A stretch of DNA of 38,415 bases from a virus (Duplodnaviria > Caudoviricetes), in the IMG/VR virus record IMGVR_UViG_3300027888_000008, positions 1-38,415 of that record, one strand, 5' to 3'. Below, piece by piece: positions 1-38,415 of this stretch. The number at the start of each line of letters is the position of its first letter. Position 1 is the stretch's first letter. Both the position numbers and the translations under genes were made by a program. The notes under the pieces were generated by a model. It was not told the origin of the DNA. It saw only the letters and a list, made by a program, of their open reading frames with translations, and made no database searches.

Positions 1-118
1 TACCTAAGCGGCATAGACCTAAGCCGAGCAGACCTACGCAATGCAAACCTAAGAGGCGCAGACCTAAGCAGAACAAAACTCGACAAAAAGCATTTTGAAG
101 AAGCAAACGGGCTTCCAA
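1..118. repeat. Terminal direct repeat (identical to 38298-38415; a third copy lies at 37277-37394)
   Basis: Base-by-base identity of 118 nt; the sequence is the 3' part of a pentapeptide paralogue. Confidence 0.95.
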
Positions 119-140
119 TAATCAACGACGAGGTGAAAAA

Positions 141-617
141 ATGAAAACGTTTGAAGAGACGCAAGAAATCTTAACCAAAATATTAGGGCATGCTCCTAGG
201 ATTGTAGATGGGAAATTTGACCTACTCGGCGCAAACCTACACGGTGCAGACCTAAGCGGCGCATACCTACACGGCGCAAACCTATTCGGCGCACACCTAA
301 ACTATACAGACCTACGTGGTGCAGACCTAAGCAACGCAAGCCTAAGCCGCGCAGACCTAATCTACGCAGACCTACGCGGTGCAAACCTAATCGGCGCATA
401 CCTACACGGCGCATACCTACTCGGCGCATACCTACGCGACGCAAACCTACGTGGTGCATACCTACACGGTGCAGACCTACGCGGTGCAGACTTACGCGGT
501 GCAAACCTACGAGACGCAGACCTAAGCAACGCATACCTACGCGGAACAAAACTCGACAAAAAGCATTTTAAAGAAGCAATCGGGCTTCCAATAATCAATG
601 ACAAGGTGAAAAAATGA
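141..617 (+). CDS. Pentapeptide repeat protein, array copy 5 (21 repeats)
   Basis: MKTFEET cap, A(D/N)LxG repeats, TKLDKKHF...VKK cap; ATGA overlaps at both ends. Confidence 0.95.
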   Translation: MKTFEETQEILTKILGHAPRIVDGKFDLLGANLHGADLSGAYLHGANLFGAHLNYTDLRGADLSNASLSRADLIYADLRGANLIGAYLHGAYLLGAYLRDANLRGAYLHGADLRGADLRGANLRDADLSNAYLRGTKLDKKHFKEAIGLPIINDKVKK

Positions 618-1225
618 AAACGTTTGAAGAGACGAAAGAAATCTTAACCAAAATATTAGGGCATGAGCCAAAAATTGTAGATGGGAAATTTTACTTATGC
701 GGAGCAAACCTACGCGGTGCAGACCTACGAAGCGCAAACCTACGCGGTGCAGACATACGCGGCGCAAACCTAAGCCACGCAAACCTAAGCGGTGCAAACC
801 TAATCGGCGCAAACCTAATCGGCGCAAACCTAATCGGCGAAGACCTAAGCTACGCATACCTACGTCGCGCAGACCTATTCGGAGCAGACCTACGCGGAGC
901 AGACCTAAGCGTTGCAGACCTAAGCGAGGCATGCCTATGCGTTATAGATCTACGCGGCGCAAACCTAAGCAACGCAGACCTATTCGGTGCAGACCTAAGC
1001 GACTCAAACCTAAGCAACGCAGCCCTACGCGGTGCATCCCTAATCTACACAAACCTACGAGGCGCAGACCTACGAGGTGCATACCTAAGTGGCATAGACC
1101 TACGCCGAGCAGACCTACGCAATGCAAACCTACTCGGCGCAAACCTAAGCAGAACAAAACTCGACAAAAAACATTTTAAAGAAGCAAACGGGCTTCCAAT
1201 AATCAATGACGAGGTGAAAAAATGA
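614..1225 (+). CDS. Pentapeptide repeat protein, array copy 6 (30 repeats)
   Basis: Same caps and repeat core; ATGA coupling. Confidence 0.95.
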   Translation: MKTFEETKEILTKILGHEPKIVDGKFYLCGANLRGADLRSANLRGADIRGANLSHANLSGANLIGANLIGANLIGEDLSYAYLRRADLFGADLRGADLSVADLSEACLCVIDLRGANLSNADLFGADLSDSNLSNAALRGASLIYTNLRGADLRGAYLSGIDLRRADLRNANLLGANLSRTKLDKKHFKEANGLPIINDEVKK

Positions 1226-1893
1226 AAACGTTTGAAGAGACGAAAGAAATCTTAACCAAAATATTAGGGCATGAGCCAAAAATTGTAGATGGGAAATTTT
1301 ACCTAAGCAACGCAGACCTACGCGGTGCATCCCTAATCTACACAGACCTACGAGGCGCAGACCTACGAGACGCAGACCTAAGTAACGCAAACCTATGCGG
1401 TATATACCTAAGCCACGCAAACCTAAGCCGCGCATACCTAAGCAACGCAGACCTACGCGGTGCATGCCTAGTCGGTGCATGCATAGTCGGTGCAGACATA
1501 CGAGGCGCAAACCTAAGCGGCGCAAACATAAGCGGCGCAGACCTACGTCGCGCAGACCTATTCGGCGCAGACCTACGCGGCGCAGACCTACGCGGAGCAG
1601 ACCTACGCGTTGCAGACCTAAGCGACGCAGAACTACGCGAAGCAAACCTACGCGAAGCAGACCTAAGCGAGGCATACCTAAGTAACGCAAACCTACGCAA
1701 CGCAGACCTAATCGATGCAAATCTATGTGGCGCAAACCTAAAACACGCAAACCTAAGCGAGGCAGACCTATGCGGCGCACACCTAAGCAACGCAAACCTA
1801 AGCTACGCATACCTACGCGGAACAAAACTCGACAAAAAGCATTTTGAAGAAGCAATCGGGCTTCCAATAATCAACGACGAGGTGAAAAAATGA
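1222..1893 (+). CDS. Pentapeptide repeat protein, array copy 7 (34 repeats)
   Basis: Same caps and repeat core; ATGA coupling. Confidence 0.95.
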   Translation: MKTFEETKEILTKILGHEPKIVDGKFYLSNADLRGASLIYTDLRGADLRDADLSNANLCGIYLSHANLSRAYLSNADLRGACLVGACIVGADIRGANLSGANISGADLRRADLFGADLRGADLRGADLRVADLSDAELREANLREADLSEAYLSNANLRNADLIDANLCGANLKHANLSEADLCGAHLSNANLSYAYLRGTKLDKKHFEEAIGLPIINDEVKK

Positions 1894-2450
1894 AAACCTT
1901 TGAAGAGACGCAAGAAATCTTAACCAAAATATTAGGGCATGCTCCTAGGATTGTAGATGGGAAATTTTACCTATGCGGAGCAAACCTACGCGGTGCAGAC
2001 CTACGAAGCGCAAACCTACGCGGTGCAGACCTATACTGCGCAAACCTAAGCCACGCAAACCTACGCAACGCAGACCTACACGGTGCAGACCTAAACGGCG
2101 CAGACCTACGCAACGCAGACCTACTCGGCGCAAACCTACTCCGCGCAGACCTACGCGACGCAGACCTAAACGGCGCAAACCTAAGCAACGCAAACCTATT
2201 CGGCGCACACCTAAACTATACAGACCTACGTGGTGCAGACCTAAGCAACGCAAGCCTAAGCGGCGCAGACCTAATCTACGCAGACCTACGCGGCGCAAAC
2301 CTAAGCGGCGCATACCTAAACGGCGCATACCTACGCGGCGCATACCTACGCGGAACAAAACTCGACAAAAAGCATTTTGAAGAAGCAATCGGGCTTCCAA
2401 TTATCAACGACGAGGTGAATCATGAAACAAGCGCTGACACGCATAAATAA
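1890..2450 (+). CDS. Pentapeptide repeat protein, array copy 8 (25 repeats, divergent tail)
   Basis: Same caps up to NDEV, then a unique tail NHETSADTHK. Confidence 0.95.
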   Translation: MKTFEETQEILTKILGHAPRIVDGKFYLCGANLRGADLRSANLRGADLYCANLSHANLRNADLHGADLNGADLRNADLLGANLLRADLRDADLNGANLSNANLFGAHLNYTDLRGADLSNASLSGADLIYADLRGANLSGAYLNGAYLRGAYLRGTKLDKKHFEEAIGLPIINDEVNHETSADTHK

Positions 2451-2556
2451 AGTAGTGAATGACGGAAAAATAGTAGGTGATAAATCTAATATCTTCGGTA
2501 GAGGTATATCAATCAATGCATTAATCAAAGAGGACAAAGACAATGGACAGAACTAA
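2422..2556 (+). CDS. Small hypothetical protein (44 aa, MKQALTRINKVVNDGKIVG...)
   Basis: GAGGTG SD upstream; bridges the array and yqaJ; not in the ORF track. Confidence 0.55.
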   Translation: MKQALTRINKVVNDGKIVGDKSNIFGRGISINALIKEDKDNGQN

Positions 2557-3538
2557 ATTTCTCGAAGAACGCCGCTCGGGCATTGGCGGTTCAGATGTAG
2601 CAAGCCTTGTGGCTGCTGAATTGCCAGAACTTGAGCTTACACCATTTAAAACACCGCTTGAGGTTTATTATTCAAAGGTGCTTGAGCCAGAAGATACAGA
2701 ACCGACGATTGACCAGAGGCGTGGGATTAATGCAGAGTACTTGGTAACAGAGCTTTATTTAAGTAAAAATGCTACTAAAAATGAAACTTATTGTATTGTT
2801 GACCATTCACCGCTACTTAGAACACGTGATTTTATGCTTGCGCATCCAGATAAGATAATTGGGAGCTTTACTCCGCCATTAGAGACTTTTAATCCATTAT
2901 TAGGTTGGCATATTTTAGAATGCAAAACAGTTCATCCCTCAAAAGCCGACCGGTGGAAAACCAAAGCCCCGCTTGAATATTGGCTGCAATGCATTCACTA
3001 TGCTATTGTTTGCGATGCACCATTCGTTGACATCGCTGGCATGATAGGATTTGAGGGGCTATCGGGCGACGATGAATATTTTAAAATTTATCGGTATGAG
3101 CGCGATAAGAAACTTGAAAAAAGAATAATCGACATCGAAGAACGCTTTTGGGAAAAGCACGTACTAAAAAAGATACCACCGCCACCGATGAATAATGCTG
3201 ATTACAATTTACTGCACGTCTCGCACAACAAGAAAAAAGCAATCATCGCAACGGCAGAAATTGACGAGGCTGTAAAAAAATATAGCTTTTTAGCAGCGGC
3301 AATCGAAAAATATAAAAAAGAAAAAGACGAGCAATCGCTACTTATAAAAAATTACATGGGCGACGCATATACCTTGCAAGACAACGAAGGTCAAAAGCTA
3401 GGCGTATGCTACAATAAGAATAATCCGCCAAAGCTAGACAAAGAAAAACTAAAGACTCTAATTTCAGAAGAAGACTACAACAGTCTTTTTGCAACTCCTA
3501 CACAAATCACCATCTTTACTCCAACCAAGAGGACATAA
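2543..3538 (+). CDS. YqaJ-like viral recombinase exonuclease (lambda-exonuclease family)
   Basis: RRSGIGGSDVA, HPD, ILECKT and QCIHY motifs; directly upstream of recT. Confidence 0.9.
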   Translation: MDRTKFLEERRSGIGGSDVASLVAAELPELELTPFKTPLEVYYSKVLEPEDTEPTIDQRRGINAEYLVTELYLSKNATKNETYCIVDHSPLLRTRDFMLAHPDKIIGSFTPPLETFNPLLGWHILECKTVHPSKADRWKTKAPLEYWLQCIHYAIVCDAPFVDIAGMIGFEGLSGDDEYFKIYRYERDKKLEKRIIDIEERFWEKHVLKKIPPPPMNNADYNLLHVSHNKKKAIIATAEIDEAVKKYSFLAAAIEKYKKEKDEQSLLIKNYMGDAYTLQDNEGQKLGVCYNKNNPPKLDKEKLKTLISEEDYNSLFATPTQITIFTPTKRT

Positions 3539-3541
3539 ATC

Positions 3542-4525
3542 ATGACAAATATTACAGAAGTGACAAACACGTTAAAGGCTAACAGAAAAGCAATGATTTC
3601 GTTGCTAGAAACAGATTACGACGGGCGCAAATTATCTTTAGAAGAAAAAGAAGCACGCTGTAAGAACTTAAGCCGCGTATTAATAAATCAGCTTCAAATA
3701 AATCCAGAAGTTTTAAAAGCGTCGCCAGATTCAATTTATTTGGCTGCAATGGAAGGGGTTAGGAATAAACTAGAATTAGGGTACGATTTTCATCTTGTGG
3801 CTTACGGTAATGTGTGTAAATGTATGATGGATTATAAGGGCAAATTGACTCTTGCGAAACGTTCTAAACGCGTAACAAAAATTGATGTTCAGCTTGTTCA
3901 TGAAAACGACGAATTTTGGTTACGTTTTGGAGAAGAACCGTATCATAAAATTTCAGGAAAATCCGCTTTTAATCGAGGAGAAATAATTGGGGTGTACGCC
4001 GTCGGCAAAGAGTTAGACGCAAGAGGGATAGAGCAAGTTTATGTTGATCCGATGTCTGTAGATGAGATAAATGATATTAGAAATCGCTACTCACAACAAA
4101 AGAACGGCACAGCATGGACAAATAGTTGGGGAGAAATGGCGAAGAAAACAGTCTTGCGAAGACTAACTAAACGCCTAGATAGAAGCATCAACGATCAATT
4201 CAGACTTACATCAAATCAAGATATGTGGCACGAAGATACTACTTTTGACAATGCAGAAGTAATCGAAGGAAAAACGGTTCAAGCTCCTGCAATGATAGAA
4301 CAGCAAATAAACCCAACCGATCAGTTAAACGCGGCTTTTGACGCAAAAGAAAAAGAACCTGTTAAAGCAAAAAGCAAGAAAAAAGATGAAGTAGAAATAC
4401 CGACAACCATCAGCGAGGAAGAGCAACTTGAAAAAGAAGAAGCATCAACGATCAATTCAGACTTACATCAAATCGAGATATGCTGCAATTATGGCGAAAG
4501 CAGAAACAAACAAACTTTTACTTAA
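3542..4525 (+). CDS. recT: RecT-family single-strand annealing recombinase
   Basis: MDYKGKLTLAKRS, VHENDEF, RGEIIGVYAV and W...WGEMAKKTVLRRLTKRL motifs. Confidence 0.9.
   Translation: MTNITEVTNTLKANRKAMISLLETDYDGRKLSLEEKEARCKNLSRVLINQLQINPEVLKASPDSIYLAAMEGVRNKLELGYDFHLVAYGNVCKCMMDYKGKLTLAKRSKRVTKIDVQLVHENDEFWLRFGEEPYHKISGKSAFNRGEIIGVYAVGKELDARGIEQVYVDPMSVDEINDIRNRYSQQKNGTAWTNSWGEMAKKTVLRRLTKRLDRSINDQFRLTSNQDMWHEDTTFDNAEVIEGKTVQAPAMIEQQINPTDQLNAAFDAKEKEPVKAKSKKKDEVEIPTTISEEEQLEKEEASTINSDLHQIEICCNYGESRNKQTFT
4181..4482 (+). repeat. 45-bp direct repeat inside recT (4181-4225 and 4438-4482, 1 mismatch)
   Basis: agaagcatcaacgatcaattcagacttacatcaaatc(a/g)agatatg occurs twice. Confidence 0.9.
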
Positions 4526-4543
4526 TAGAGTGGTAAATAAATT

Positions 4544-4771
4544 ATGATTACATTTTTATATCTTTCAATCCTTTTTGGAAGCGTTTTTTTAGCGTATTGC
4601 ATAGTATTAATAACAGAATTTATAGTAAGTTTTACTAGAAAGAAAAAAATGATGAGAGATTTTGAAAAGCAATCGAATTATATAGTTTCAGATAAAAAAG
4701 CTAAAAAAATTATCAAGAAATGTCCTTCATGGAAAGAACCTAGAAATTTTACAAATATTAAGACGCTATAG
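4544..4771 (+). CDS. Small membrane protein
   Basis: N-terminal hydrophobic helix followed by a basic tail. Confidence 0.6.
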   Translation: MITFLYLSILFGSVFLAYCIVLITEFIVSFTRKKKMMRDFEKQSNYIVSDKKAKKIIKKCPSWKEPRNFTNIKTL

Positions 4772-4846
4772 TTTAATGGTAAAACATGCTAGTTTTTCCT
4801 TAAAAATTTTTCTAGCAAGATTCTGGTTCGAATCCAGCTGGCGTCA
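4762..4846 (+). tRNA. tRNA-like element with an aberrant anticodon arm (identity undeterminable)
   Basis: Acceptor GACGCTA/TGGCGTC; D-arm GTTT-AATGGTA-AAAC; T-loop GGTTCGAATCC; stem TGCTAG/CTAGCA closes a 19-nt loop. Confidence 0.7.
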
Positions 4847-4942
4847 CTAATTTAATAGAGGGCGATCTATTCCTAAAATCGTTGAGCATGAAAAAACTCC
4901 CCTCTATTGGTTTATTATAAACTATTTTCAAAAAAATACTAT

Positions 4943-5019
4943 GCCGCCGTAGCTTAAGAAAAGCGCGCGAGGATTAGCCCTTCTTGCGTGAGATTCAGGT
5001 TTAATTCCTGACGGCGGCA
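4943..5019 (+). tRNA. tRNA-like element with an extended anticodon stem (loop TTAGCCC)
   Basis: Acceptor GCCGCCG/CGGCGGC; D-arm GCTT/AAGC; T-arm TCAGG-TTTAATT-CCTGA; 8-bp anticodon stem including G-U pairs. Confidence 0.65.
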
Positions 5020-5154
5020 CTTAAATTTTTTTGAAAAAACTTGGTTTATGTACAAAATAGATACAATTTAGGTCTAGTTATACCAATTTAAAAGCAGAGA
5101 AAGAGTTGATTGACGAGCTTAGGGAAATGTTATTTATATGTGTTTGTGAAAAAA

Positions 5155-5188
5155 ATAAGCCTTGACATCGGGCGACGTCAAGACTTAT
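5155..5188. promoter_or_regulatory. Imperfect inverted repeat upstream of the initiator gene
   Basis: ataagcCTTGACATCG-gg-CGACGTCAAGacttat. Confidence 0.45.
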
Positions 5189-5285
5189 ACTTTACTTAGA
5201 TACTAAAACCCTTGCAGTTTAACAGATAATATAAGGGTGTCAATACTTTTTTTTAAATATTTTATAAGCTAAATGCTGGTGGAAT

Positions 5286-6113
5286 ATGGAGCAAGCTAGT
5301 TACAATTATGGCAATAGGTGTGGGCATGTGCCAAACAGCCCGCGACTATACGTAAGGCCAGCATTTAAAAAGAAAACATACGATATTTTAACGGACGCGC
5401 AAAAAAATCTAGCAGAATATTATTCAGACCCAAAAAACTGGCTAAAAAACATCGAGGAAAGCCGTTTTGATGTTGATAAGGGTCATAGCATGGGTCAACA
5501 AAGAACGGAGTCGAGAGAGGCTGTGGCTGCCGTTACGGGCGTGATTTTAGACCACTTAGACCTCGATACCATGAACATCGTTCGATATAAACAAGGAACA
5601 CCAAAAAATATGTCAATTTACGACATTGCCGAAAAAGCTGGAATTAATTACGATAGATGTTGGCGTGCGCTAATGGTGCTTCAAAATGCGTCTTATGTAA
5701 CTAGTAAACAAGCACAAATTAAGGAAATCGCGCTGAAGCGAGTTAGCCTTACATTATTACATCATTTAGGAATATCTGCTCTGCGTGTACATCTATGCAG
5801 AGGAAAGAAGCATAAATCACTAGAAATGAAACGCGGCGAAACAGCCATCCAAAATAATCCACAGTTAAAAAAAGCCATGAAAAGTCTTAAAGAAGCTCTT
5901 TGTAAACCAATAAAAACACTTGAGCAAAAAGAGGAAGCAGAAAAAGAAAAACAACGTAAATATTTTTGCAAGTGCAGCAGAGAACTTTTCTTGAACCTAG
6001 AACCACAAATTAAGGCTGGAAAAATGTCGATTGGTGATATCAATAGAATATTGTATGAACGCGGCATTTACCATCCCGACCTACCAAAAGAAAAAGTCTT
6101 TGGAAAGACGTGA
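5286..6113 (+). CDS. Plasmid-type replication initiator (IncFII RepA-like, HTH)
   Basis: SREAVAAV...DHLD, SIYDIAEKAGI, RCWRALMVLQNASYVT and LLHHLGIS parallel recalled IncFII RepA motifs; DnaA boxes lie downstream. Confidence 0.65.
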   Translation: MEQASYNYGNRCGHVPNSPRLYVRPAFKKKTYDILTDAQKNLAEYYSDPKNWLKNIEESRFDVDKGHSMGQQRTESREAVAAVTGVILDHLDLDTMNIVRYKQGTPKNMSIYDIAEKAGINYDRCWRALMVLQNASYVTSKQAQIKEIALKRVSLTLLHHLGISALRVHLCRGKKHKSLEMKRGETAIQNNPQLKKAMKSLKEALCKPIKTLEQKEEAEKEKQRKYFCKCSRELFLNLEPQIKAGKMSIGDINRILYERGIYHPDLPKEKVFGKT

Positions 6114-6236: not shown

Positions 6237-6257
6237 TGTGGATAACTCTGTGGATAA
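6237..6257 (-). promoter_or_regulatory. Two consensus DnaA boxes; putative origin
   Basis: TGTGGATAA at 6237-6245 and 6249-6257 (TTATCCACA on the minus strand). Confidence 0.8.
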
Positions 6258-8059: not shown

Positions 8060-8211
8060 TGTTCACCTCTTTCGATTTTGTATGTTTCATTTTCTTTTTC
8101 CTCATAAAATTTGTTCATTTCTATATATGCTTTTTGTCCTTCTTCGCAGCCCGCTTCATAGCCCGCTTCCCACGCAGTTTGCTGGGCTTCTATTTCTTTT
8201 GTGTTACTCAT
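8056..8211 (-). CDS. Small hypothetical protein (51 aa, MSNTKEIEAQQTAWEAGYEAG...)
   Basis: GAGGTG SD; ATGA overlap with the next gene; not in the ORF track. Confidence 0.65.
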   Translation of the reverse strand: MSNTKEIEAQQTAWEAGYEAGCEEGQKAYIEMNKFYEEKENETYKIERGEQ

Positions 8212-8374
8212 CTTTCACCTCGCTATATTTAAAATTTGCGTCAATTATTTCCCACGAGTGACCAATAAACTTTGCATCGTGCAGGTCTGCTGTATATAAG
8301 TGCGCGTCGTGTAGTTCAATTTTTCCGAAAATTCTTTCGTGGTTCTCTTTTGTCTCTTCAAATGTTTTTTTCAT
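8204..8374 (-). CDS. Divergent short paralogue of the pentapeptide array (56 aa)
   Basis: MKKTFEETKE...ELHDAHLYTADLHDAKFIG...SEVKDE; GAGGTG SD; not in the ORF track. Confidence 0.75.
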   Translation of the reverse strand: MKKTFEETKENHERIFGKIELHDAHLYTADLHDAKFIGHSWEIIDANFKYSEVKDE

Positions 8375-9100: not shown

Positions 9101-9331
9101 TTATAGCGGTTTTCGAGATTTTATTTTTTCAACGATTCCGAAAAGCATCTCTGCAATTTTTAAGCGATTTTCCGGTCGTGTAAGATCAAGACCATCTAAG
9201 TTTGTAGTGCTTAAATCCGCTGTCTGTAAGTTTGCAGTGCTTAAATCCGCTGTCTGTAAGTTTGCGTTGCGTTCCTCAAAATCTATTCTTTCAACTGTAA
9301 AGTTTTCGCTGTTTTTCATAATGCACCTCAA
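9101..9331 (-). CDS. Small protein with a short pentapeptide-like tract
   Basis: ANLQT ADLST ANLQT ADLST TNLDG; perfect 30-bp tandem duplication at 9206-9265. Confidence 0.65.
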   Translation of the reverse strand: MRCIMKNSENFTVERIDFEERNANLQTADLSTANLQTADLSTTNLDGLDLTRPENRLKIAEMLFGIVEKIKSRKPL

Positions 9332-9810
9332 TAGTTAAAGATTTGGCAGTGTGCCTCGTCGGTTTTTGTGTAGTCATTGTGTTGTCCCCCATAGTATGTG
9401 TTTCTTTTTATTGTTGATTTTATGTACATAAGTTCTTTTTGTGCTTTTCTCGATTTTCTTTTTTCGAATATTTTTGCTATTGTTTGCTTTTCTAAAAGCA
9501 TTTTTGTATTGCGGTACGCTTTAAAAATCGTGAAAAACATCAAGTATCTTTCTGTGCTCGTTAATTTTTTTAACGCGCTTATTTCTTTGTCATCGTGTAA
9601 AAAATCCAAACAGATACTTTCTTCTCCGCCGCCATGTTTTACTAGCAAAAACATACAACCAAAGCGTTTTTCAACTAGTCTAAAGTAAAAAGCCCTGTAG
9701 CAGACGTTCCCTATCACGCGGCCCGGTTCTTCAAAAATTATGGTGTCGTTGAAGCGCACCGTCGGGAATTTCCAATTATCTGTAGTTTCGTTACATTTTA
9801 AATTTTCCAT
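9328..9810 (-). CDS. Hypothetical protein
   Basis: Starts MEN after the repeated leader with a GAGGG SD. Confidence 0.75.
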   Translation of the reverse strand: MENLKCNETTDNWKFPTVRFNDTIIFEEPGRVIGNVCYRAFYFRLVEKRFGCMFLLVKHGGGEESICLDFLHDDKEISALKKLTSTERYLMFFTIFKAYRNTKMLLEKQTIAKIFEKRKSRKAQKELMYIKSTIKRNTYYGGQHNDYTKTDEAHCQIFNY

Positions 9811-9886
9811 GATGTTGTCCCTCTTAATAAAAAATAAAATACACCCCCACGAGTGTGGGGAAAGATTTATCTTTTGGGTTAAAGTT

Positions 9887-10126: not shown

Positions 10127-10233
10127 AAGTCAGTCCCTCTAAAAATTAATTAATAAAAAAGTAAAAAAAGCCTCTCTTGTTTTATCGCTGCATTTCCCAC
10201 AAGCACCCCCACGAGTGTGGGGAAAGATGATGT

Positions 10234-10479
10234 TTACTCACTAGATGTCCACTCGCCGTAAAAACCAAAGTCGGCGTAGTCTGCTATCACTACGTCGTCA
10301 TCACCAGCGCGCACACCGTACCACGGCAGCGTAGCGACTACCTCGTCGTCGTGCTCGATGTGTATGCTAGTCTGTGTATATGCTAGATGTGCCTCCGCAT
10401 ATGCTTTTGCTTGCTCGAGTGTGTCGCGCCACTCATTGCCAGCGCCTGTGCCAAAATTTACAAAATATGAATTTTCCAT
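10234..10479 (-). CDS. Small acidic hypothetical protein (81 aa)
   Basis: Start moved to MENSYF, which has the same leader as the gene at 9810. Confidence 0.75.
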   Translation of the reverse strand: MENSYFVNFGTGAGNEWRDTLEQAKAYAEAHLAYTQTSIHIEHDDEVVATLPWYGVRAGDDDVVIADYADFGFYGEWTSSE

Positions 10480-10542
10480 GATGTTGTCCCTCTTAATAAA
10501 AAATAAAATACACCCCCACACGAGTGTGGGGAAAGATGATGT

Positions 10543-10947
10543 TTACTTACTAGATGACTTTTGCATGCGGTCATAGTCTTGCGAGCCGACTATAAATGCA
10601 GTTTTGACGCACCAAGGGCTCTCCTTTTTTTCGATTTCTCGTAGTATCCCGTATTGATCACTATAGTCGCTGTCAGGCATAAGCTCATCGTCTAGCTCAG
10701 CTTTGCTGGTGCATATCTTATCGCTGATGTAGATGGGCTTTGCTGTACTATCTATCTCATCGTCGTCTTGATACTCTGCTGCGTAGTCTAAGTGCTGCTG
10801 CTCATAATAGTCGCCGTCAAGCTGCACCAGCTCTTTTCTTAGGTCTGCGAGCATCTGGCGTGCGTCGGCTTCTGTGTCCGCTGTCTGTAGCTTCTGCGAG
10901 CCGTTGACGATATCATAGCAATATAAAGTATAAGTATAAGTGATCAT
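10543..10947 (-). CDS. Acidic hypothetical protein
   Basis: GAGG SD; D/E/Y-rich; first gene of the leftward operon. Confidence 0.75.
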   Translation of the reverse strand: MITYTYTLYCYDIVNGSQKLQTADTEADARQMLADLRKELVQLDGDYYEQQHLDYAAEYQDDDEIDSTAKPIYISDKICTSKAELDDELMPDSDYSDQYGILREIEKKESPWCVKTAFIVGSQDYDRMQKSSSK

Positions 10948-18228: not shown

Positions 18229-18248
18229 TGTGGATAACCTGTGGATAA
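18229..18248 (-). promoter_or_regulatory. Two consensus DnaA boxes
   Basis: TGTGGATAA at 18229-18237 and 18240-18248. Confidence 0.8.
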
Positions 18249-31994: not shown

Positions 31995-33689
31995 ATGGGA
32001 TTTATTAGACACAAGCAAACATTTAATCTTGCAAAATCTTATGATGCGGTTCAGACATATTTCCTTGCAAAATATGGTTCAGACAGCAATAGCGGATTAT
32101 CAGAACACAAACCGTTTGTAACAGCAGCTAAAGCTTTAGATGTTGCCAATGCAGCAGCAAGCGTAAGCACTCCTGTTACTATTTTATGTTTAGACAATGG
32201 AACATACAGCATCCAGTCAAAATCAATAAACGATTATGTTGTTTTTTATGCGCCAAATGCAAAATTAATCGGCAATTTTATTGATATCGAAGGAAAATCA
32301 AAAATAATATGCGCTGAACAAGGAGAAGGATTTTTTGACTTTGTTGGGGCAACAGCTTCAGATATTGCATACTATACTGCAAGATATGTAAATGGCAAAT
32401 TTTCACCAATAAATACTCTGCGTATTCTTAGTGCCGCATCGGCTAATATTTCAATCGGAACACTAGAAATGGAAGTCGCCACAGGGACACCATATGGCGT
32501 GCTCGTTGATAATGCAAGCTCAATTAAAAATATAATTAAGATTGATACTTTATTGCTTGGAGCTAACAATGTAGGCGGAATAAATGTTGATCAAGGACAC
32601 GCAACCATTATCGTCGGACAAACTTTAAAAACTGGCTCATTTACTGGGACAACAGGAATAAAAGTTGCAGCAGGCGCGACGGCAGACATAATCATTCATG
32701 GTAAAAACGAGGCAGATACACCAATTAATGTAAACGATCATAATCACAATATTATTTCCACAGAACATGGAATTTTAATTCGCGGCAAAAGACCTCTTAT
32801 TAGCGCAAAAGGCTACGCCAGCACGCAAGCAGCGCGTATTGAAACTTCGTTTGCCGAAGGAAGTCCATCATCGCCAACAACAATTTTGCCGACCGCTGAT
32901 TTAGGTGCTCATATCGCTTATGGTGAAAGGCAAGACGGTTCGCTTTCAGGACAATACCCATACGTAGAACTATTACCTACTACACAAGCAGGTGATATTG
33001 AAGACGGGAAATATGTAATTACCGTAAATGATGTTCAGTCCGGCGGCTCAGTGATCAACCATACTGCTTTCAGTTATGCCGCAAAAACAGGCGGCGGAAC
33101 TGGAGAATACGGAGTTCCATTTGCTGTTGCAGGATTTTCATTACCGACGGCAGACGGCGTACTTGGCCAGCTATTACAAACTAACGGGAGCAAAGTATTA
33201 GGATTTGTTCCAAAACCAGTTTCTATACAATTCGGAATAGAAAATTTAATATCGTCCGCTCCAGTAATTCCACGCGATAATACTCCGCCTCTTATTTCAG
33301 AAGGAACGTTGATTAGTGACGGCGCTCCAACTCCTGTTACTTTTACAATCCCATTTACACTAAGCAGTTTGTCTAAAATGCTAAAAATTAGTTTATCTGT
33401 CGTTGTATGGGTAGATGCCGACGTGGCTGTAACTGTCGCTGTTTTTGAAAGCTTTGGCTCAAGCTGTATCGGCAAACGGTCGAAAAAAATTAAAGGCACT
33501 GATTCTACTAATAATTTAAAGTCGATTGAGTGGACTTTTTTCTATCAACCACCAACGACGCCATCAAGAACTTATACAGCCCGCATAGGCCCGGATGCAA
33601 CATGCAATCTAAGATTAAATGGCGATGGAAGCGATACGAGCTTATTTATTAATTATTCAAGTTTTACTATAGAAGAAGTCCCTGCTTAA
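31995..33689 (+). CDS. Tailspike/receptor-binding protein (beta-helix-like N-terminal half)
   Basis: YGSDSNSGLSEHKPFVTAAKAL...GTY motif; LPTADG..GQLLQTNGS..L.F fibre motif. Confidence 0.7.
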   Translation: MGFIRHKQTFNLAKSYDAVQTYFLAKYGSDSNSGLSEHKPFVTAAKALDVANAAASVSTPVTILCLDNGTYSIQSKSINDYVVFYAPNAKLIGNFIDIEGKSKIICAEQGEGFFDFVGATASDIAYYTARYVNGKFSPINTLRILSAASANISIGTLEMEVATGTPYGVLVDNASSIKNIIKIDTLLLGANNVGGINVDQGHATIIVGQTLKTGSFTGTTGIKVAAGATADIIIHGKNEADTPINVNDHNHNIISTEHGILIRGKRPLISAKGYASTQAARIETSFAEGSPSSPTTILPTADLGAHIAYGERQDGSLSGQYPYVELLPTTQAGDIEDGKYVITVNDVQSGGSVINHTAFSYAAKTGGGTGEYGVPFAVAGFSLPTADGVLGQLLQTNGSKVLGFVPKPVSIQFGIENLISSAPVIPRDNTPPLISEGTLISDGAPTPVTFTIPFTLSSLSKMLKISLSVVVWVDADVAVTVAVFESFGSSCIGKRSKKIKGTDSTNNLKSIEWTFFYQPPTTPSRTYTARIGPDATCNLRLNGDGSDTSLFINYSSFTIEEVPA

Positions 33690-34369
33690 AGCACAAGACA
33701 CATAGATGAACTTACAGTTCTGTTTTCCTGCTTTGAATCTTTGAAAAATGTTGCAGCAACTTTGCAATTAGATGGATTTTTGTCAATGCACCTAAAACAT
33801 TCATCTTGATCATCAGAATCTTTAATAAAAGTTTTTCCATAATTTGATGTAATTTTTTTATATAATCCTTTCCCTTTTGCAGCAAGTTGAAAACGCAAAA
33901 TTCCATATTTATTTCTTTGTGTTGGAGCAGTTTCATATCCACATATAACAGAAGATTCTTCTTTTGCAGGAGTGATTATTTCTTCATCAAGCCCATTTAA
34001 TATTTTCATTCGCGGTAGATAAAAACTGCAAATTTTCATATTAGTTGGGCAGCATTTAGTGGATGGTTCAAATTTGTAAAAAGAATTATGCGCAAGATAA
34101 TAATCAATTTCATTTGATATAATAGGCGCGCTATTTGCAAAAACATCCTGCATTTTCCAAGTAACGCCCTCTATAACGGCAGAATTATTTTCTCGTAATA
34201 ATCCTTTCTCTGTAAAATAAAAACCCGATATTGACTTAGTGCAATCATATTCATTTGGTGTTGGGCAAATAAATTCCTTAGTATATTCATCATTAGCATA
34301 AACGGATTTTATTGATAGAATGGCAATTGCTGCTTTTACAATTGTCTTAAGAATTTGCTTAATATTCAT
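33686..34369 (-). CDS. Moron-like secreted Cys-rich protein ending in CaaX (CLVL)
   Basis: Signal-peptide-like N-terminus; multiple Cys; opposite strand to its neighbours. Confidence 0.75.
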   Translation of the reverse strand: MNIKQILKTIVKAAIAILSIKSVYANDEYTKEFICPTPNEYDCTKSISGFYFTEKGLLRENNSAVIEGVTWKMQDVFANSAPIISNEIDYYLAHNSFYKFEPSTKCCPTNMKICSFYLPRMKILNGLDEEIITPAKEESSVICGYETAPTQRNKYGILRFQLAAKGKGLYKKITSNYGKTFIKDSDDQDECFRCIDKNPSNCKVAATFFKDSKQENRTVSSSMCLVL

Positions 34370-34434: not shown

Positions 34435-34929
34435 ATGATTATAATGCTTTTTAAACGAAAGTCAAAATTTTCCGATAAACAGTTCGTCAGATTAAAAAAA
34501 AGAATTATGGCTGAAGAAAGCCTAAAGTTATTTGCTTACAAAGACGATCAATATAAAAAGGGTCGTATAAGCATTGGCTATGGGACAAAAGCAAAAAAAA
34601 TGGACGATCGTATCTCTCCATTAGAGGCAGAGCGAGAACTTGAAAAGGTTTTAAAACAAACAATAAAAGAATATGGTTGGCTCGAGGAAAAATGCCCGTT
34701 TGAGATTAACGAAGTTCGCCGCGAAGCATTGTGCGATATGATTTTTAATCTTGGACTTCCAACATTTAAAGAATTCAAAAAAACTATAAAATTAATTATT
34801 AACGATAATCCAAACGATTGGCATTTTGTTGCTGCGGAAATGCGCGACTCCAAATGGTTTGATCAAGTTAGAAAACGAGCGCAGCGTATTTTATACGAAA
34901 TCGATACAGGGGAGTTTAAAGGTGAATGA
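34435..34929 (+). CDS. Endolysin, T4-like lysozyme (GH24)
   Basis: EE.LKLFAYKD, SIGYG, RREALCDMIFNLG and AAEMRDSKWFDQV..RA motifs. Confidence 0.9.
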   Translation: MIIMLFKRKSKFSDKQFVRLKKRIMAEESLKLFAYKDDQYKKGRISIGYGTKAKKMDDRISPLEAERELEKVLKQTIKEYGWLEEKCPFEINEVRREALCDMIFNLGLPTFKEFKKTIKLIINDNPNDWHFVAAEMRDSKWFDQVRKRAQRILYEIDTGEFKGE

Positions 34930-35581
34930 AATCACTATATCAGAACTAATCAAAATCGTGCAGCCCGGTGATGTTTTAATGACATCTGGCACAACACTCC
35001 TAAGCCGCCTAATTCGTTGGTCACAGCAGCTCGCTGGCGATCCAGCGAAATATACTCATATTGCCTTATTCGGATTGAAAGATACTATTAACAACGGTTA
35101 TATTTACGAAGCCTACAAAGATTTAAACCTACATGAACTGAAACAGTATATTGGATATGACGTCTGTGTGATAAGAAATGTTGACATGAATTTGCTGAAA
35201 TTCAAAACGAGGCTTTTTGAAATAGAAAATAATTTAGGTCAAATATATCCTTATCATCGTCTTTTTTTCCACTTAATAGATGGCTGCGCAAATTGGATTC
35301 TGCGAAATTTAAACTTAAAATCAAGAGCAAAAATAGCCAAAATGATTAATTTTGATCGCCCTGTATGTTCAGAGTGGGTTGCTCAAATTTTCAATGAAGA
35401 TTTTGAAAAATGGGCTGGTGTCGTTCCAGATGACTTTGACGACAAGCGTTTACAGAATCATAATCGCTGGAAAACAATTTTTGAGGGAAAATTAATTGAT
35501 GAAATCAAAATACCGCTACAAGAGAGCACGAACAATATTCAACATAAATGTGTGGATAGAGAATTTCAAACCTGTTTTTGA
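34922..35581 (+). CDS. Permuted papain-like NlpC/P60 (YiiX/YebB-type) peptidase
   Basis: QPGDVL, YTHIAL and VCSEWV, with His before Cys; GTG start. Confidence 0.8.
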   Translation: MNEITISELIKIVQPGDVLMTSGTTLLSRLIRWSQQLAGDPAKYTHIALFGLKDTINNGYIYEAYKDLNLHELKQYIGYDVCVIRNVDMNLLKFKTRLFEIENNLGQIYPYHRLFFHLIDGCANWILRNLNLKSRAKIAKMINFDRPVCSEWVAQIFNEDFEKWAGVVPDDFDDKRLQNHNRWKTIFEGKLIDEIKIPLQESTNNIQHKCVDREFQTCF

Positions 35582-35798
35582 AAAAGTTGACAGAAGGGGT
35601 GTATTTAACAAGACTGTAAACGGCGACACAGGAATGGTTCGCAGAAAAAATGATGACAAGAGAAATAATAATGAGAACGAAGAAGATAATTTTTTATCAC
35701 CCCCAAAAAGATTTAAAAAATGGGTAATGGGTCTGATTGCAACAATTATAACAGCAGTTGCTGGAATCGCTTGGGAATATTGGCGTTTGAGAAAATGA
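35499..35798 (+). CDS. Protein with a C-terminal TM helix (possible lysis accessory)
   Basis: WVMGLIATIITAVAGIAW; start uncertain. Confidence 0.45.
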   Translation: MKSKYRYKRARTIFNINVWIENFKPVFEKVDRRGVFNKTVNGDTGMVRRKNDDKRNNNENEEDNFLSPPKRFKKWVMGLIATIITAVAGIAWEYWRLRK

Positions 35799-35805
35799 GG
35801 TATTT

Positions 35806-35868
35806 ATGGAATTATTAATATTAGCGGTTGTTATGGCGACAGTCATGCTGATTCAAAAAAGAAAATAA
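35806..35868 (+). CDS. 20-aa hydrophobic peptide MELLILAVVMATVMLIQKRK
   Basis: GAGGT SD; single TM helix plus basic tail. Confidence 0.4.
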   Translation: MELLILAVVMATVMLIQKRK

Positions 35869-35894
35869 CCAGCGAATTGCTTAGAAAAACATTA

Positions 35895-35922
35895 TTGACA
35901 AAATAAAATCCGATATTATAAT
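35895..35922 (+). promoter_or_regulatory. Consensus sigma70 promoter for the rusA-array-recET operon
   Basis: TTGACA-16 bp-TATAAT. Confidence 0.8.
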
Positions 35923-35952
35923 GCCATTATATTCATAAGAAGGGCAAATGAC

Positions 35953-36504
35953 ATGAAGTCAAGAATTGAATTTTTATTATATACATATAATAAACCTACC
36001 TTTCCAGTTTCTGAAGGTTGGAAACTAAAATACTATTTTTCGCTTCCCTTTCCGCCTACCACAGGAAACAATCAATATTATACCAATCTTCGTCTAAATA
36101 ATTTTAATGGTTCAAATTTCGCATACAAAAATAAGTCTGTTGCTATTGGTTACAAAAACTGCCCTAATTATTCAAGGAAAAAACAAAAACCATACAAAGC
36201 AATTCATGTATTGAAAGACTGCATAAGAGATTATCGTCAATATGCAAAATATTATTTGGCGAATCTTGTCAGTAAACGCGGAACGATAAGCAAAACCGCT
36301 GGCGCATGCATTCTTATTGTCATGCCAGATAGGCGAAGGCGTGACATGGAAAATTTGTTAAAAGTCGTAAACGATGCGCTTCAGTACGCCAAAATAGTTG
36401 AAGATGATAAGTTATTTAGACGATCGAAAATAATCATAGCAGACGAACCCGATAAAATTGACCCAAACATTTCGTTTTTAATCTTTGAAAGAGTTGAACG
36501 ATGA
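35953..36504 (+). CDS. rusA: RusA-family Holliday junction resolvase
   Basis: LPFPPT.GN and PDRRRRDMENLLKVVNDALQ....EDD motifs. Confidence 0.9.
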   Translation: MKSRIEFLLYTYNKPTFPVSEGWKLKYYFSLPFPPTTGNNQYYTNLRLNNFNGSNFAYKNKSVAIGYKNCPNYSRKKQKPYKAIHVLKDCIRDYRQYAKYYLANLVSKRGTISKTAGACILIVMPDRRRRDMENLLKVVNDALQYAKIVEDDKLFRRSKIIIADEPDKIDPNISFLIFERVER

Positions 36505-36722
36505 AAACATTTGAAGAAACAGAGGAAATCCTAACTAAGATTCTTGGGTATGAGCCAAAAATTGTTGGTAAAAGATTTGAATTATTCGGCGCAAACCTAC
36601 GCGGCGCAAACCTACGCAACGCAAACCTACGCGGCGCAAACATAAGCGGAACAAAACTCGACAAAAAACATTTTAAAGAAGCAATCGGACTCCCAATTAT
36701 CAATGACGAGGTGAAAAAATGA
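36501..36722 (+). CDS. Pentapeptide repeat protein, array copy 1 (4 repeats)
   Basis: Both caps present with a minimal core; ATGA overlap with rusA. Confidence 0.9.
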   Translation: MKTFEETEEILTKILGYEPKIVGKRFELFGANLRGANLRNANLRGANISGTKLDKKHFKEAIGLPIINDEVKK

Positions 36723-37420
36723 AAACGTTTGAAGAGACGCAAGAAATCTTAACCAAAATATTAGGGCATGAGCCTAGGATTGTAGATGGAGAGTTTTGCC
36801 TAAGCGAGTCAGACCTACGCGGTGCAAACCTAAGCGGCGCAAACCTAAGCTACGCAGACCTACGTGGTGCATACCTACGCGGTGCAGACATACGAGGCGC
36901 AGACTTACGCGGTGCAAACCTAAGCGGCGCAAACCTAAGCGGCGCAAACCTACACGGCGCAGACCTAAGCTACACAGGCCTACGCGGTGCATGCCTAGTC
37001 GGTGCAGACCTACGAGGCGCAGACCTAAGCTACGCAGGCCTACGAAGCGCAGACCTACGCGACGCAAACCTACGCGGAGCAAACCTACGCGGTGCAGACC
37101 TACTCGGCGCAAACCTAAGCCACGCAAACCTACGCAACGCAGACCTACGCGGTGCAGAACTACGCGAAGCAGACCTAAGCAACGCAGACCTACGCGGTGC
37201 AAACCTAAGCGACGCAGACCTAACCTACGCAGACCTACGAAGCGCAGACCTACGCGACGCAAACCTAGGCGGCGCATACCTAAGCGGCATAGACCTAAGC
37301 CGAGCAGACCTACGCAATGCAAACCTAAGAGGCGCAGACCTAAGCAGAACAAAACTCGACAAAAAGCATTTTGAAGAAGCAAACGGGCTTCCAATAATCA
37401 ATGACAAGGTGAAAAAATGA
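36719..37420 (+). CDS. Pentapeptide repeat protein, array copy 2 (36 repeats)
   Basis: Caps plus repeat core; ATGA coupling. Confidence 0.95.
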   Translation: MKTFEETQEILTKILGHEPRIVDGEFCLSESDLRGANLSGANLSYADLRGAYLRGADIRGADLRGANLSGANLSGANLHGADLSYTGLRGACLVGADLRGADLSYAGLRSADLRDANLRGANLRGADLLGANLSHANLRNADLRGAELREADLSNADLRGANLSDADLTYADLRSADLRDANLGGAYLSGIDLSRADLRNANLRGADLSRTKLDKKHFEEANGLPIINDKVKK

Positions 37421-37953
37421 AAACGTTTGAAGAGACGAAAGAAATCTTAACCAAAATATTAGGGCATGCTCCTATGATTGTAGATGGGAAATTTTACCTA
37501 AGCTACGCAGACCTACGCGGTGCATCCCTAATCTACACAAACCTACACGGCGCAAACCTAAGCCGCGCAAACCTAATCGGCGCAAACCTATTCGGCGCAC
37601 ACCTAAACTATACAGACATACGTGGTGCAGACCTAAGCAACGCAAGCCTAAGCGGCGCAGACCTAATCTACGCAGACTTACGCGGTGCAAACCTAATCGG
37701 CGCATACCTACACGGCGCAGACCTATGCGGAGCATACCTACGCGACGCAAACCTACGTGGTGCATACCTACACGGTGCAGACCTACGCGGTGCAGACTTA
37801 CGCGGTGCAAACCTACGCAACGCAGACCTATTCGGCGCAAAAATAAGCGTAACAAAACTCGACAAAAAGCATTTTAAAGAAGCAATCGGGCTTCCAATAA
37901 TCAATGACAAGGTGAAAAAATGGAAACGTTTGAAGAGACGCAAGAAATCTTAA
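37417..37953 (+). CDS. Pentapeptide repeat protein, array copy 3 (23 repeats; 10-aa read-through tail)
   Basis: The usual TGA is TGG at 37921-37923. Confidence 0.9.
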   Translation: MKTFEETKEILTKILGHAPMIVDGKFYLSYADLRGASLIYTNLHGANLSRANLIGANLFGAHLNYTDIRGADLSNASLSGADLIYADLRGANLIGAYLHGADLCGAYLRDANLRGAYLHGADLRGADLRGANLRNADLFGAKISVTKLDKKHFKEAIGLPIINDKVKKWKRLKRRKKS

Positions 37954-38415
37954 CCAAAATACTAGGACATGAGCCTAGGATTGTAGATTGGAAATTTTAC
38001 CTACGCGGAGCAAACCTACGCGGAGCAAACCTACGCGGAGCAAACCTATGCGGTGCAGACCTACTCGGCGCAAACCTAAGCCACGCAAACCTACGCAACG
38101 CAGACCTAGGCGGTGCAGAACTACGCGAAGCAGACCTAAGCCACGCAAACCTAAGCGGTGCAAACCTAATCTACGCAAACCTAAGAGGCGCAGACCTACG
38201 CGGTGCATCCCTAATCTACACAAACCTACGAGCCGCAGACCTACGTGGTGCATACCTAATCTACACAAACCTACAAGGCGCAGACCTACGCGGCGCATAC
38301 CTAAGCGGCATAGACCTAAGCCGAGCAGACCTACGCAATGCAAACCTAAGAGGCGCAGACCTAAGCAGAACAAAACTCGACAAAAAGCATTTTGAAGAAG
38401 CAAACGGGCTTCCAA
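37920..38415 (+). CDS. Pentapeptide repeat protein, array copy 4 (runs off the end; joins 119-144 if circular, 173 aa, 24 repeats)
   Basis: METFEETQEILTKILGHEPRIVDWKFYLRGANL...; in frame through the terminal overlap; missing from the ORF track. Confidence 0.9.
   Translation, partial: METFEETQEILTKILGHEPRIVDWKFYLRGANLRGANLRGANLCGADLLGANLSHANLRNADLGGAELREADLSHANLSGANLIYANLRGADLRGASLIYTNLRAADLRGAYLIYTNLQGADLRGAYLSGIDLSRADLRNANLRGADLSRTKLDKKHFEEANGLP

What the first reader, a model, noticed from the sequence alone, without database searches (positions are those of the whole stretch)
1..2450. Tandem array of eight pentapeptide-repeat genes with constant caps and combinatorially shuffled cores (continues from 36501-38415)
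Seen: eight head-to-tail paralogues start at 36501, 36719, 37417, 37920, 141, 614, 1222 and 1890. Each has a ~27-aa N-cap, n pentapeptides and a 23-aa C-cap, with n = 4, 36, 23, 24, 21, 30, 34, 25. Distinctive blocks recur in different genes at different positions. ANLFG-AHLNY-TDxRG-ADLSN-ASLSx-ADLIY is in copies 3, 5, 8; ASLIY-T(N/D)L in 3, 4, 6, 7; AYLSG-IDLxR-ADLRN in 2, 4, 6; YLCG-ANLRG-ADLRS in 6, 8; ACLVG in 2, 7. The (E/K)VKK* tail supplies the SD (G/A)AGGTG and the ATGA overlap for the next gene, so whole units can be gained or lost without breaking coupling. Known: pentapeptide repeats form quadrilateral beta-helices, and MfpA/Qnr are DNA mimics that bind gyrase. Inference: about 4.2 kb of a 38-kb genome forms a gene accordion yielding a variable repertoire of rod-shaped binders or decoys, possibly anti-defence or host-takeover.
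Basis: partly seen in the sequence, partly recalled or inferred. Interest (0 to 1): 0.92.

Follow-up and report, generated by a model that had tools for sequence, protein, structure and literature searches.

The report
Eight-gene shuffled phage pentapeptide array
An uncultured marine-sediment phage spends 11% of its genome on eight back-to-back genes for predicted rod-shaped repeat proteins that keep their ends constant and have swapped pieces of their middles, likely as an early-made set of blockers of host anti-phage defences, a role that is untested here.

Summary
The array is real. Eight pentapeptide-repeat (PRP) genes (197 core units, 4,247 bp, 11.1% of a 38,297-bp circle) lie between rusA and recE/recT behind a perfect sigma-70 promoter match, in a P22-like podophage that is probably a phage-plasmid. 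Another assembly spans the whole array with 100% identity across the window break; it may come from the same reads. Blocks shared between copies far exceed shuffled controls, and the nearest neighbour changes along a gene. Caps are under purifying selection. Core variation is mostly non-synonymous at predicted surface positions. No dedicated diversifier was found. DNA mimicry is not supported: cores are near neutral, no face is acidic, and Qnr/MfpA cut-offs are missed. Among 50,697 phage records, the highest-scoring DNA matches to the core are Vibrio phages CP-T1 and 24. Gene 24_60 of phage 24 is a PRP with published anti-defence evidence, though it carries a C-terminal domain that these proteins lack. 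Best reading: a recombination-diversified counter-defence repertoire (0.45). The scan has found similar arrays on other DNA several times, and I saw more in fetched viral contigs. Population-level copy change was not shown.

The parts
35895..35922 (+). Sigma-70-type promoter match, TTGACA-16-TATAAT (12 of 12), upstream of the rusA-PRP-recE-recT gene run
   Evidence: consensus match only
35953..36504 (+). RusA-like Holliday junction resolvase gene; its stop overlaps the start of copy 1 (ATGA)
   Evidence: PF05866; phrog_34
36501..36722 (+). PRP copy 1, 73 aa, 4 core units; most diverged N-cap (69-76% DNA identity to the others)
36719..37420 (+). PRP copy 2, 233 aa, 36 core units; contains the third copy of the 118-bp end repeat (37277-37394)
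37417..37953 (+). PRP copy 3, 178 aa, 23 core units; stop codon lost, 10-aa basic extension overlapping copy 4
37920..38415 (+). PRP copy 4, 5' part (173 aa in all, 24 core units); 38298-38415 repeats 1-118
1..144 (+). PRP copy 4, 3' part (continues across the circular join)
141..617 (+). PRP copy 5, 158 aa, 21 core units; AlphaFold2 model: N-terminal helix and hairpin, repeat solenoid, short C-terminal helix
614..1225 (+). PRP copy 6, 203 aa, 30 core units; N-cap identical to copy 7, first units like copy 8, last units like copies 2 and 4
1222..1893 (+). PRP copy 7, 223 aa, 34 core units; most acidic core (net -7), no long shared block
1890..2450 (+). PRP copy 8, 186 aa, 25 core units; carries the copy 3/5 block at unit 16 instead of unit 5-7
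2422..2556 (+). 44-aa ORF behind the same AGGTG ribosome-binding motif in the copy 8 tail; no family match
2543..3538 (+). RecE/YqaJ-like exonuclease gene
   Evidence: PF09588; phrog_434
3542..4525 (+). RecT single-strand annealing protein gene
   Evidence: PF03837; phrog_148
8204..8374 (-). Likely degenerate ninth relative, 56 aa, with the array's N-terminal motif and about three worn units, in the opposite small-gene cluster
   Evidence: 39% identity over 44 aa to copy 1, pairwise E 1e-6

Best explanation
Eight tandem phage genes encode predicted beta-helical rods with constant caps and mosaic cores, likely made together early in infection as a repertoire of counter-defence proteins whose surfaces are likely re-tuned by recombination between 15-bp units. 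Shown: the array, its operon-like layout, block sharing and mosaicism, purifying selection on the caps, and variation concentrated at three positions of the unit. Inferred: (a) co-expression from the promoter match at 35895 with translational coupling; (b) duplication by crossover in the 89-100% identical caps and block transfer by annealing between out-of-register units, likely helped by the adjacent RecE/RecT/RusA; (c) function by analogy to Vibrio phage 24 gene 24_60: the rod surface binds or jams a component of a host abortive-infection system, and different copies cover different systems or alleles.
For: Layout: promoter match 12 of 12, ATGA overlaps, flanked by rusA and recE/recT. In Salmonella phage ST104 the single PRP gene (orf19) lies between ral (antirestriction) and gene 17, upstream of erf/abc. 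Selection: cap pN/pS 0.21 at both ends; core pooled pN/pS 1.62; third bases of the i-2 and i codons are A in 197 of 197 units, while positions i-1, i+1, i+2 show 10, 14 and 11 amino acids. The same pattern (both third bases at least 90% fixed) holds in 38 of 72 other viral PRP genes in fetched loci, with different fixed codons in different genes. Mosaicism: nearest neighbour switches by segment; 22 of 36 informative cap-site pairs fail the four-gamete test. Precedent: all 6 Sucellos escapers of phage 24 carried Y112R and N110N/N115D in 24_60, and deleting the gene made the phage much more sensitive (passages). Those residue numbers fall on the i-1 and i+1 register of the repeat (inference, because the GenBank repeat is shorter than the authors' corrected one). 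Phages CP-T1 and 24 use the same 15-bp unit (GCA-RAC-CTA-CGC-GGC) and give the highest scores and identity (81%) among the 11 of 50,697 records matching the copy 2 core; 1 of 72 other viral genes has that GCA-xAC-CTA-CGC unit.
Against: No functional or expression data for these genes. 24_60 and ST104 orf19 end in a roughly 75-aa domain that these proteins lack, and it is not known whether the rod alone acts. pN/pS at i+1 and i+2 is only 0.9-1.3, compatible with relaxed selection, and pairwise counts among recombining units are not independent. There is no lag-4 (same-face) periodicity, lengths take every value mod 4, and face charges are more even than shuffled (P=0.98 of being exceeded), so no conserved binding face is visible. 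Cap incompatibility alone is not decisive: without recombination P=0.001 if all 135 sites can mutate but 0.06-0.25 if only 45 or 30 do. The shared unit with phage 24 could be convergence on a low-complexity repeat. The precedent is one preprint whose authors call the role 'probable'.
Confidence: 0.45

Rival explanations
1. Dosage or near-neutral amplification: one function, with copies multiplied and scrambled as a by-product of a 15-bp repeat sitting beside recE/recT; surface variety is tolerated or selected only for folding and solubility, not for different targets.
For: No face periodicity; even face charges; acidic i-1 goes with basic i+1 (Fisher P=0.004), as charge balancing would give. 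pN/pS near 1 at i+1 and i+2. Copy 3 has lost its stop and a worn ninth relative exists. Single phage PRP genes change length freely: 15-bp deletion in phage L orf232, 375-bp deletion in Caulobacter phage GB2A, CP-T1 versus 24.
Against: All eight frames are open over 205 units; 11% of a 38-kb genome is kept although direct repeats allow easy deletion (inference); synonymous positions are frozen while amino acids vary, which neutral scrambling does not predict.
Confidence: 0.25
2. DNA mimics in the manner of MfpA/Qnr that bind gyrase, or decoy restriction and other DNA-binding enzymes.
For: Same predicted fold; early position next to recombination genes; copies 2, 7 and 8 are mildly acidic (pI 5.3-5.8).
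Against: Core net charge -7 to +3, median about -1.5; no acidic face. Qnr model 34-72 bits against cut-off 240 and MfpA 50-83 against 360 for the three copies scanned. The predicted C-terminal helix is 4 residues, against 11-12-residue dimer helices in AlbG and MfpA. No Qnr-type loops interrupt the repeats. Variable length and surface fit poorly with one conserved target.
Confidence: 0.12
3. Cargo for the resident (likely plasmid) state: proteins that exclude competing phages or plasmids or alter host physiology, rather than countering defence during infection.
For: The phage has a RepA-like gene with two DnaA-box-like sites behind it and no integrase match; a perfect promoter match could be constitutive.
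Against: The array shares a gene run with recE/recT/rusA, typical of lytic early expression (established knowledge of lambdoid phages); single PRP genes also occur in phages such as Listeria CKA15, described as lytic.
Confidence: 0.1
4. Assembly artefact: alleles from a mixed population or mis-threaded repeats strung into one array.
For: Three of four assemblies break at the same 133-bp repeat; one has an 83-bp slip in copy 4; the assemblies may share reads; no long reads or raw reads were available.
Against: Where they overlap, four assemblies give the same order and letters. The longest repeat in the array is 133 bp and occurs twice; only 70 of 4,149 99-mers are repeated. Separate zero-mismatch contigs for parts of the cores of copies 2, 4, 5, 6, 7 and 8, and an 18,666-bp contig running from the flank into copy 1, are in run X1 (8 rows shown in each call). 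No joints were listed for 36000-38415.
Confidence: 0.05

Closest known systems
Vibrio phage 24 gene 24_60 (SBVc24_0060, AIA08749.1; KJ572844.2) and its unannotated CP-T1 counterpart; proposed anti-Sucellos protein (bioRxiv 10.1101/2024.07.02.601686)
   Same: Phage PRP built from the same 15-bp unit, frozen third positions, variation at i-1, i+1, i+2, length differs between close phages.
   Different: Single gene, short different N-terminus and a roughly 75-aa C-terminal domain; here eight genes with their own 25-aa and 23-aa caps and no such domain; function tested there, not here.
P22-like early-operon PRP genes: ST104 orf19 (BAD15181.1), phage L / ST64T orf232
   Same: P22-like phage, early operon upstream of the single-strand annealing gene, 15-bp unit array that gains and loses units.
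   Different: Single copy, different codons (GCC-RAC-CTG), the 24_60-type end domain; function unknown.
MfpA / Qnr / AlbG / EfsQnr gyrase-protecting PRPs
   Same: Right-handed quadrilateral beta-helix fold.
   Different: Family cut-offs missed, no long C-terminal dimer helix, no Qnr loops, near-neutral and variable cores.
Small cyanobacterial PRPs (Np275/276 2J8K, HetL 3DU1, Alr5209 6OMX, Rfr23 2O6W)
   Same: Closest natural solved structures by sequence and fold; plain A(D/N)Lxx rods with short caps.
   Different: Chromosomal, different caps. Copies 2 and 6 pass the Alr5209 cut-off (234 and 132 against 125 bits) only by summed repeats, which I do not take as membership.
P0002 (100 aa, unnamed, 563-bp contig)
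   Same: The only outside protein found with both caps.
   Different: About 10 units; no genomic context available.

Membership tests
Pentapeptide repeat proteins (PF00805) | Tandem A(D/N)Lxx repeats above the Pfam cut-off | tested here: met
   7 of 7 copies scanned pass (37-262 bits against 20.2); copy 4 was not scanned, and its repeats are plain. Copy 1 has only 4-5 units, below the review's eight-repeat definition.
Pentapeptide repeat proteins (PF00805) | Right-handed quadrilateral beta-helix | tested here: met
   Predicted only: copy 5 model pLDDT 91.9, pTM 0.86; Foldseek matches are solved PRPs.
Qnr / MfpA gyrase-protecting PRPs | Score above the curated Qnr or MfpA model cut-off | tested here: not met
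   Copies 2, 5, 6: Qnr 34-72 of 240 bits, MfpA 50-83 of 360.
Qnr / MfpA gyrase-protecting PRPs | Head-to-head dimer through a C-terminal helix of about 11-12 residues | tested here: inconclusive
   Model has only a 4-residue C-terminal helix (comparison). The oligomeric state itself is not established.
Qnr / MfpA gyrase-protecting PRPs | DNA-like negative surface | tested here: not met
   Core net charge -7 to +3; face sums -3 to +2. Sequence-level only; no electrostatic map, and MfpA's own charge was not computed.
Qnr / MfpA gyrase-protecting PRPs | Binds and protects gyrase | not testable with these tools
   Needs a biochemical assay.
24_60 / orf232-type phage PRPs | 15-bp unit array with fixed third positions and variable surface codons | tested here: met
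24_60 / orf232-type phage PRPs | Conserved C-terminal domain after the repeats | tested here: not met
   Present in L106, L107, L109; absent in all eight copies.
24_60 / orf232-type phage PRPs | Counters an abortive-infection system | not testable with these tools
   Shown genetically only for 24_60.
Diversity-generating retroelement | Reverse transcriptase gene in the element | tested here: not met
   No match among 51 ORFs scanned of 220 listed.
Diversity-generating retroelement | Adenine-specific variation | tested here: not met
   A at unit positions 3 and 9 is invariant in 197 of 197 units, while G and C positions vary.
Site-specific shufflon / cassette system | Dedicated recombinase and conserved crossover sites | tested here: not met
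   No integrase or invertase match; all copies are co-directional; block ends fall at varied places in the cores.

The most novel reading that the evidence does not exclude
Phages keep tandem libraries of capped beta-helix rods as a modular counter-defence arsenal, a phage counterpart of LRR or antibody repertoires: constant caps give folding and translational coupling, the phage's own RecET/RusA genes on both sides reshuffle 15-bp surface units within and between copies, and each copy neutralises a different host defence system, so that new specificities arise during growth without any dedicated diversifying enzyme.
Probability: 0.22. Interest if true: 0.88.

Novelty: new variant of a known kind. 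Interest (0 to 1): 0.55.

Why it matters
PRP genes are common in phages (355 of 50,697 records match copy 5) and, in the papers I found, only one has functional evidence. This locus gives eight natural surface variants on one scaffold, with no extra domain, so it can directly test whether the rod surface alone sets anti-defence specificity. If it does, a large unexplained phage family becomes a class of evolvable defence inhibitors. Such arrays are also under-counted: pentapeptide repeats were 26 times more frequent in long-read than in assembled marine viral data (PMC9238414). The arrangement is not unique to this phage, which lowers surprise but raises generality.

Tried and rejected
Homodimer prediction for copy 5: no answer (score 0.01, controls not folded); not evidence either way. 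Copy-number from depth: contigs unique to copies 2 and 4 had depth 17-19, those of copies 5-8 21-29, flanks 26-29, but the tool states that contig depth is no copy number, so it is not used; uncovered bins at 37701-37862 are likewise not used. The one joint (1083 to 1039, 45 back, depth 17.4) fits the copy 4 contig laid on copy 6, not a population variant (inference from equal depth and the 3-unit duplication in copy 4). No RNA holder was listed. Relatives: RecT homologues at 64-82% exist (P0127-P0129), but their DNA was not found in the viral collection, so the block-order comparison between related phages is open. Cap searches found only this phage in viral contigs, metagenome contigs (L083-L085 are 25-nt chance matches), GTDB genomes (L093 is a 17-aa match followed by a stop) and cultured phages. 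The 1.84-billion-protein search gave P0001 and P0002 plus two unrelated repeat proteins; clustering at 50% identity can hide capped PRPs, so this is not absence. A profile search of whole proteins returned generic PRPs, none of the 120 listed with the caps. DGR and shufflon readings rejected (membership table). Antisense and shifted-frame ORFs over the cores follow from the repeat's lack of stops and are not treated as genes. Face-specific periodicity: none. PADLOC scan of 11 proteins: no match. Literature: eight searches listed no paper describing multi-gene PRP arrays in phages; the library lacks most subscription papers, and the supplement of the preprint (corrected 24_60 sequence, Fig. S7) could not be seen.
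Full report
Observation. The window is a whole phage genome. Its ends share 118 bp, giving a circle of 38,297 bp. Eight co-directional genes start at 36501, 36719, 37417, 37920, 141, 614, 1222 and 1890 and encode 73-233 aa proteins: a 25-aa N-cap, an F-x-L unit, 4-36 further pentapeptides and a C-cap beginning TKLDKKHF. They span 4,247 bp, 11.1% of the genome, and hold 205 units, or 197 without the F units. Copy 3 has lost its stop, so ATGA coupling holds at 6 of 7 internal junctions, and copy 8 has a longer tail.

Is it an assembly artefact? The 118-bp end repeat also lies in copy 2, so the break is at a true internal repeat of 133 bp. Three other viral-collection contigs hold the same phage. 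L001/L077 run through the whole array in one piece, 100% identical to the circularised window; L004/L076 also cross the join; L005/L078 cross it with an 83-bp frameshifting gap in copy 4. They may derive from the same reads, so they test the assembly and not the population. Only 70 of 4,149 99-mers in the array are repeated and none at 135. In the one run listed, which may be the source, separate zero-mismatch contigs cover parts of the cores of copies 2, 4, 5, 6, 7 and 8, and an 18.7-kb contig runs from the flank into copy 1 (only 8 rows are shown per call, and none of them is specific to copy 3). I put the chance of an artefact near 5%.

Context. Portal, coat, head-closure and ejection genes are P22-like; the best cultured portal matches are about 25% identical. 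No integrase was found among 51 ORFs scanned. A 275-aa protein at 5286-6113 resembles plasmid initiators (best plasmid match 30%, Legionella antarctica; 94 of 114 records Pseudomonas; IncFII RepA-like predicted fold) and is followed by two DnaA-box-like sites (motif recalled). The phage is therefore likely a phage-plasmid of a gammaproteobacterium; the host is not identified. The array lies in one gene run: a 12-of-12 sigma-70 promoter match at 35895-35922, rusA, eight PRP genes, a 44-aa ORF, recE, recT. No + strand terminator match lies in 35500-36600 or 1-5300; 36600-38415 was not scanned.

Evolution of the array. Runs of units shared between copies far exceed unit-shuffled controls (6 exact runs of 3 or more against 0.01; 8 near-exact runs of 4 or more against 0.07; 200 shuffles). 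They cover 81 of 205 units; copies 1 and 7 have none. Sharing alone shows descent; exchange is shown by switching of nearest neighbours. Copy 6 has the N-cap of copy 7 (0 differences in 75 nt), the first four units of copy 8 (1 in 60) and last units nearest copies 2 and 4. Copy 8 has the N-cap of copy 5, the first units of copy 6, the copy 3/5 block moved from unit 5-7 to unit 16, and a C-cap nearest copy 7. In the caps of copies 2-8, 22 of 36 informative site pairs are incompatible with one tree; simulations without recombination reach this with P=0.001 if all sites can mutate, but 0.06-0.25 if mutation is confined to 45 or 30 sites, so the caps support but do not prove exchange.

Selection. 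Both caps have pN/pS 0.21, so the genes are likely functional. In the cores the third base of the i-2 and i codons is A in 197 of 197 units, although CTA is only 8% of leucine codons elsewhere in the genome; the i-1, i+1 and i+2 positions (outward-facing in solved PRPs; recalled) show 10, 14 and 11 amino acids. Pooled pN/pS is 1.62, but only 0.9-1.3 at i+1 and i+2, and units are not independent. The pattern is general: 38 of 72 other viral PRP genes with at least 12 A-x-L units in my loci have both third bases at least 90% fixed, with different codons in different genes. It is best read as fast homogenisation of units with amino-acid variety retained. It is not DGR mutagenesis: adenines are the fixed bases and no reverse transcriptase was found.

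Protein. AlphaFold2 gives copy 5 a confident model (pLDDT 91.9): helix 4-15, a hairpin, a regular solenoid and a 4-residue C-terminal helix; fold matches are solved PRPs. Cores are near neutral (-7 to +3), face sums range from -3 to +2 and are more even than shuffled, and there is no four-unit periodicity. Qnr and MfpA models score far below cut-off. Those proteins dimerise through C-terminal helices and, for MfpA, show a DNA-like surface (PMC8145042, passages; PMC7980463, passages). DNA mimicry is thus not supported, though not excluded without an assay. One outside protein, P0002, has both caps.

Function. In bioRxiv 10.1101/2024.07.02.601686 (passages) all six escapers of the RexAB-like Sucellos system carried Y112R and N110N/N115D in this PRP gene, and its deletion made the phage far more sensitive; the authors call it a probable anti-defence protein. 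The GenBank copy of the repeat is shorter than their corrected one, but residues 110, 115 and 112 match the i-1 and i+1 register, so the escape changes look like conversion of one unit type into another (inference). The 24_60 and CP-T1 units are GCA-RAC-CTA-CGC-GGC, the consensus of this array, and these phages give the highest scores among 11 of 50,697 records matching the copy 2 core (81% identity). In P22-like ST104 the PRP gene sits between ral and gene 17 in the early operon. Against this: 24_60 and orf19 carry a C-terminal domain absent here, the shared unit may be convergent, and nothing here is tested. I give 0.45 to a recombination-diversified counter-defence repertoire, 0.25 to dosage or near-neutral amplification, 0.12 to DNA mimicry, 0.10 to a carrier-state function and 0.05 to artefact.

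What is known. Single phage PRP genes are common (355 records) and change length: phage L orf232 (10.1101/2020.10.05.325894, one passage), Caulobacter phage GB2A (PMC11053796, passages). A Listeria phage PRP-like gene is transcribed in an operon (PMC12282133, one passage). PMC9238414 (passages) reports enrichment in long reads. PMC10132094 and PMC9241854 (passages) were not relevant. Eight literature searches listed no description of multi-gene PRP arrays in phages (one search was for Qnr/MfpA). They are not rare, however: fetched loci hold clusters of 3 (L011, conserved ends), 4 (L046), 7 (L052), 2 (L054) and 3 (L060) PRP genes with other end pieces, and the scan has logged arrays of 3 to 16 copies on other DNA (unchecked notes).

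Verdict. A real, well-formed array; a new variant of a known kind: its own caps, no end domain, eight copies between the phage's recombination genes. Interest 0.55, because it makes the function of phage PRPs directly testable, while the arrangement recurs elsewhere and neither function nor ongoing shuffling is shown.

Noticed in passing
window 5286-6113 (+) and 6237-6257: IncFII-RepA-like initiator followed by two DnaA-box-like sites, with no integrase found: a P22-like podophage that likely persists as a plasmid. A second pair of such boxes lies at 18229-18248.
   Followed up: partly
window 9101-9331 (-): 76-aa ORF with a short pentapeptide-like stretch encoded by a 30-bp tandem duplication (9197-9256); different unit from the main array.
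   Followed up: partly
window 9801-9885, 10206-10247, 10470-10556: Three copies of an intergenic CCCCACGAGTGTGGGG-type hairpin motif, two within a 60-bp repeat that includes a gene start, upstream of leftward small genes; possible repeated promoter/operator cassettes.
   Followed up: no
window 4762-4847 and 4943-5020 (+): Two tRNA-like genes called by ARAGORN, Lys(ttt) and Ala(agc); an AGC anticodon is unusual in bacteria (recalled), and both may be degenerate.
   Followed up: no
window 33686-34369 (-): 227-aa Cys-rich protein with a signal-peptide-like N-terminus, inserted against the late-gene direction; no Pfam, PHROG, NCBIfam or PADLOC match.
   Followed up: no
window 34826-35581 (+): 251-aa ORF after the lysozyme with H and C motifs reminiscent of permuted papain-like amidases (recalled resemblance; no matching family found).
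   Followed up: no
L052 5481-15572; L011 8149-12464; L046 5566-10615: Other viral PRP gene clusters: seven tandem genes with a shared basic N-terminus in L052, three with a shared C-terminal domain in L011, four in L046.
   Followed up: partly
L106 2947-3444: The PRP gene of Vibrio phage CP-T1 is not annotated in JQ177061.1; it has 13 units against 8 in the GenBank record of phage 24, with identical ends.
   Followed up: yes
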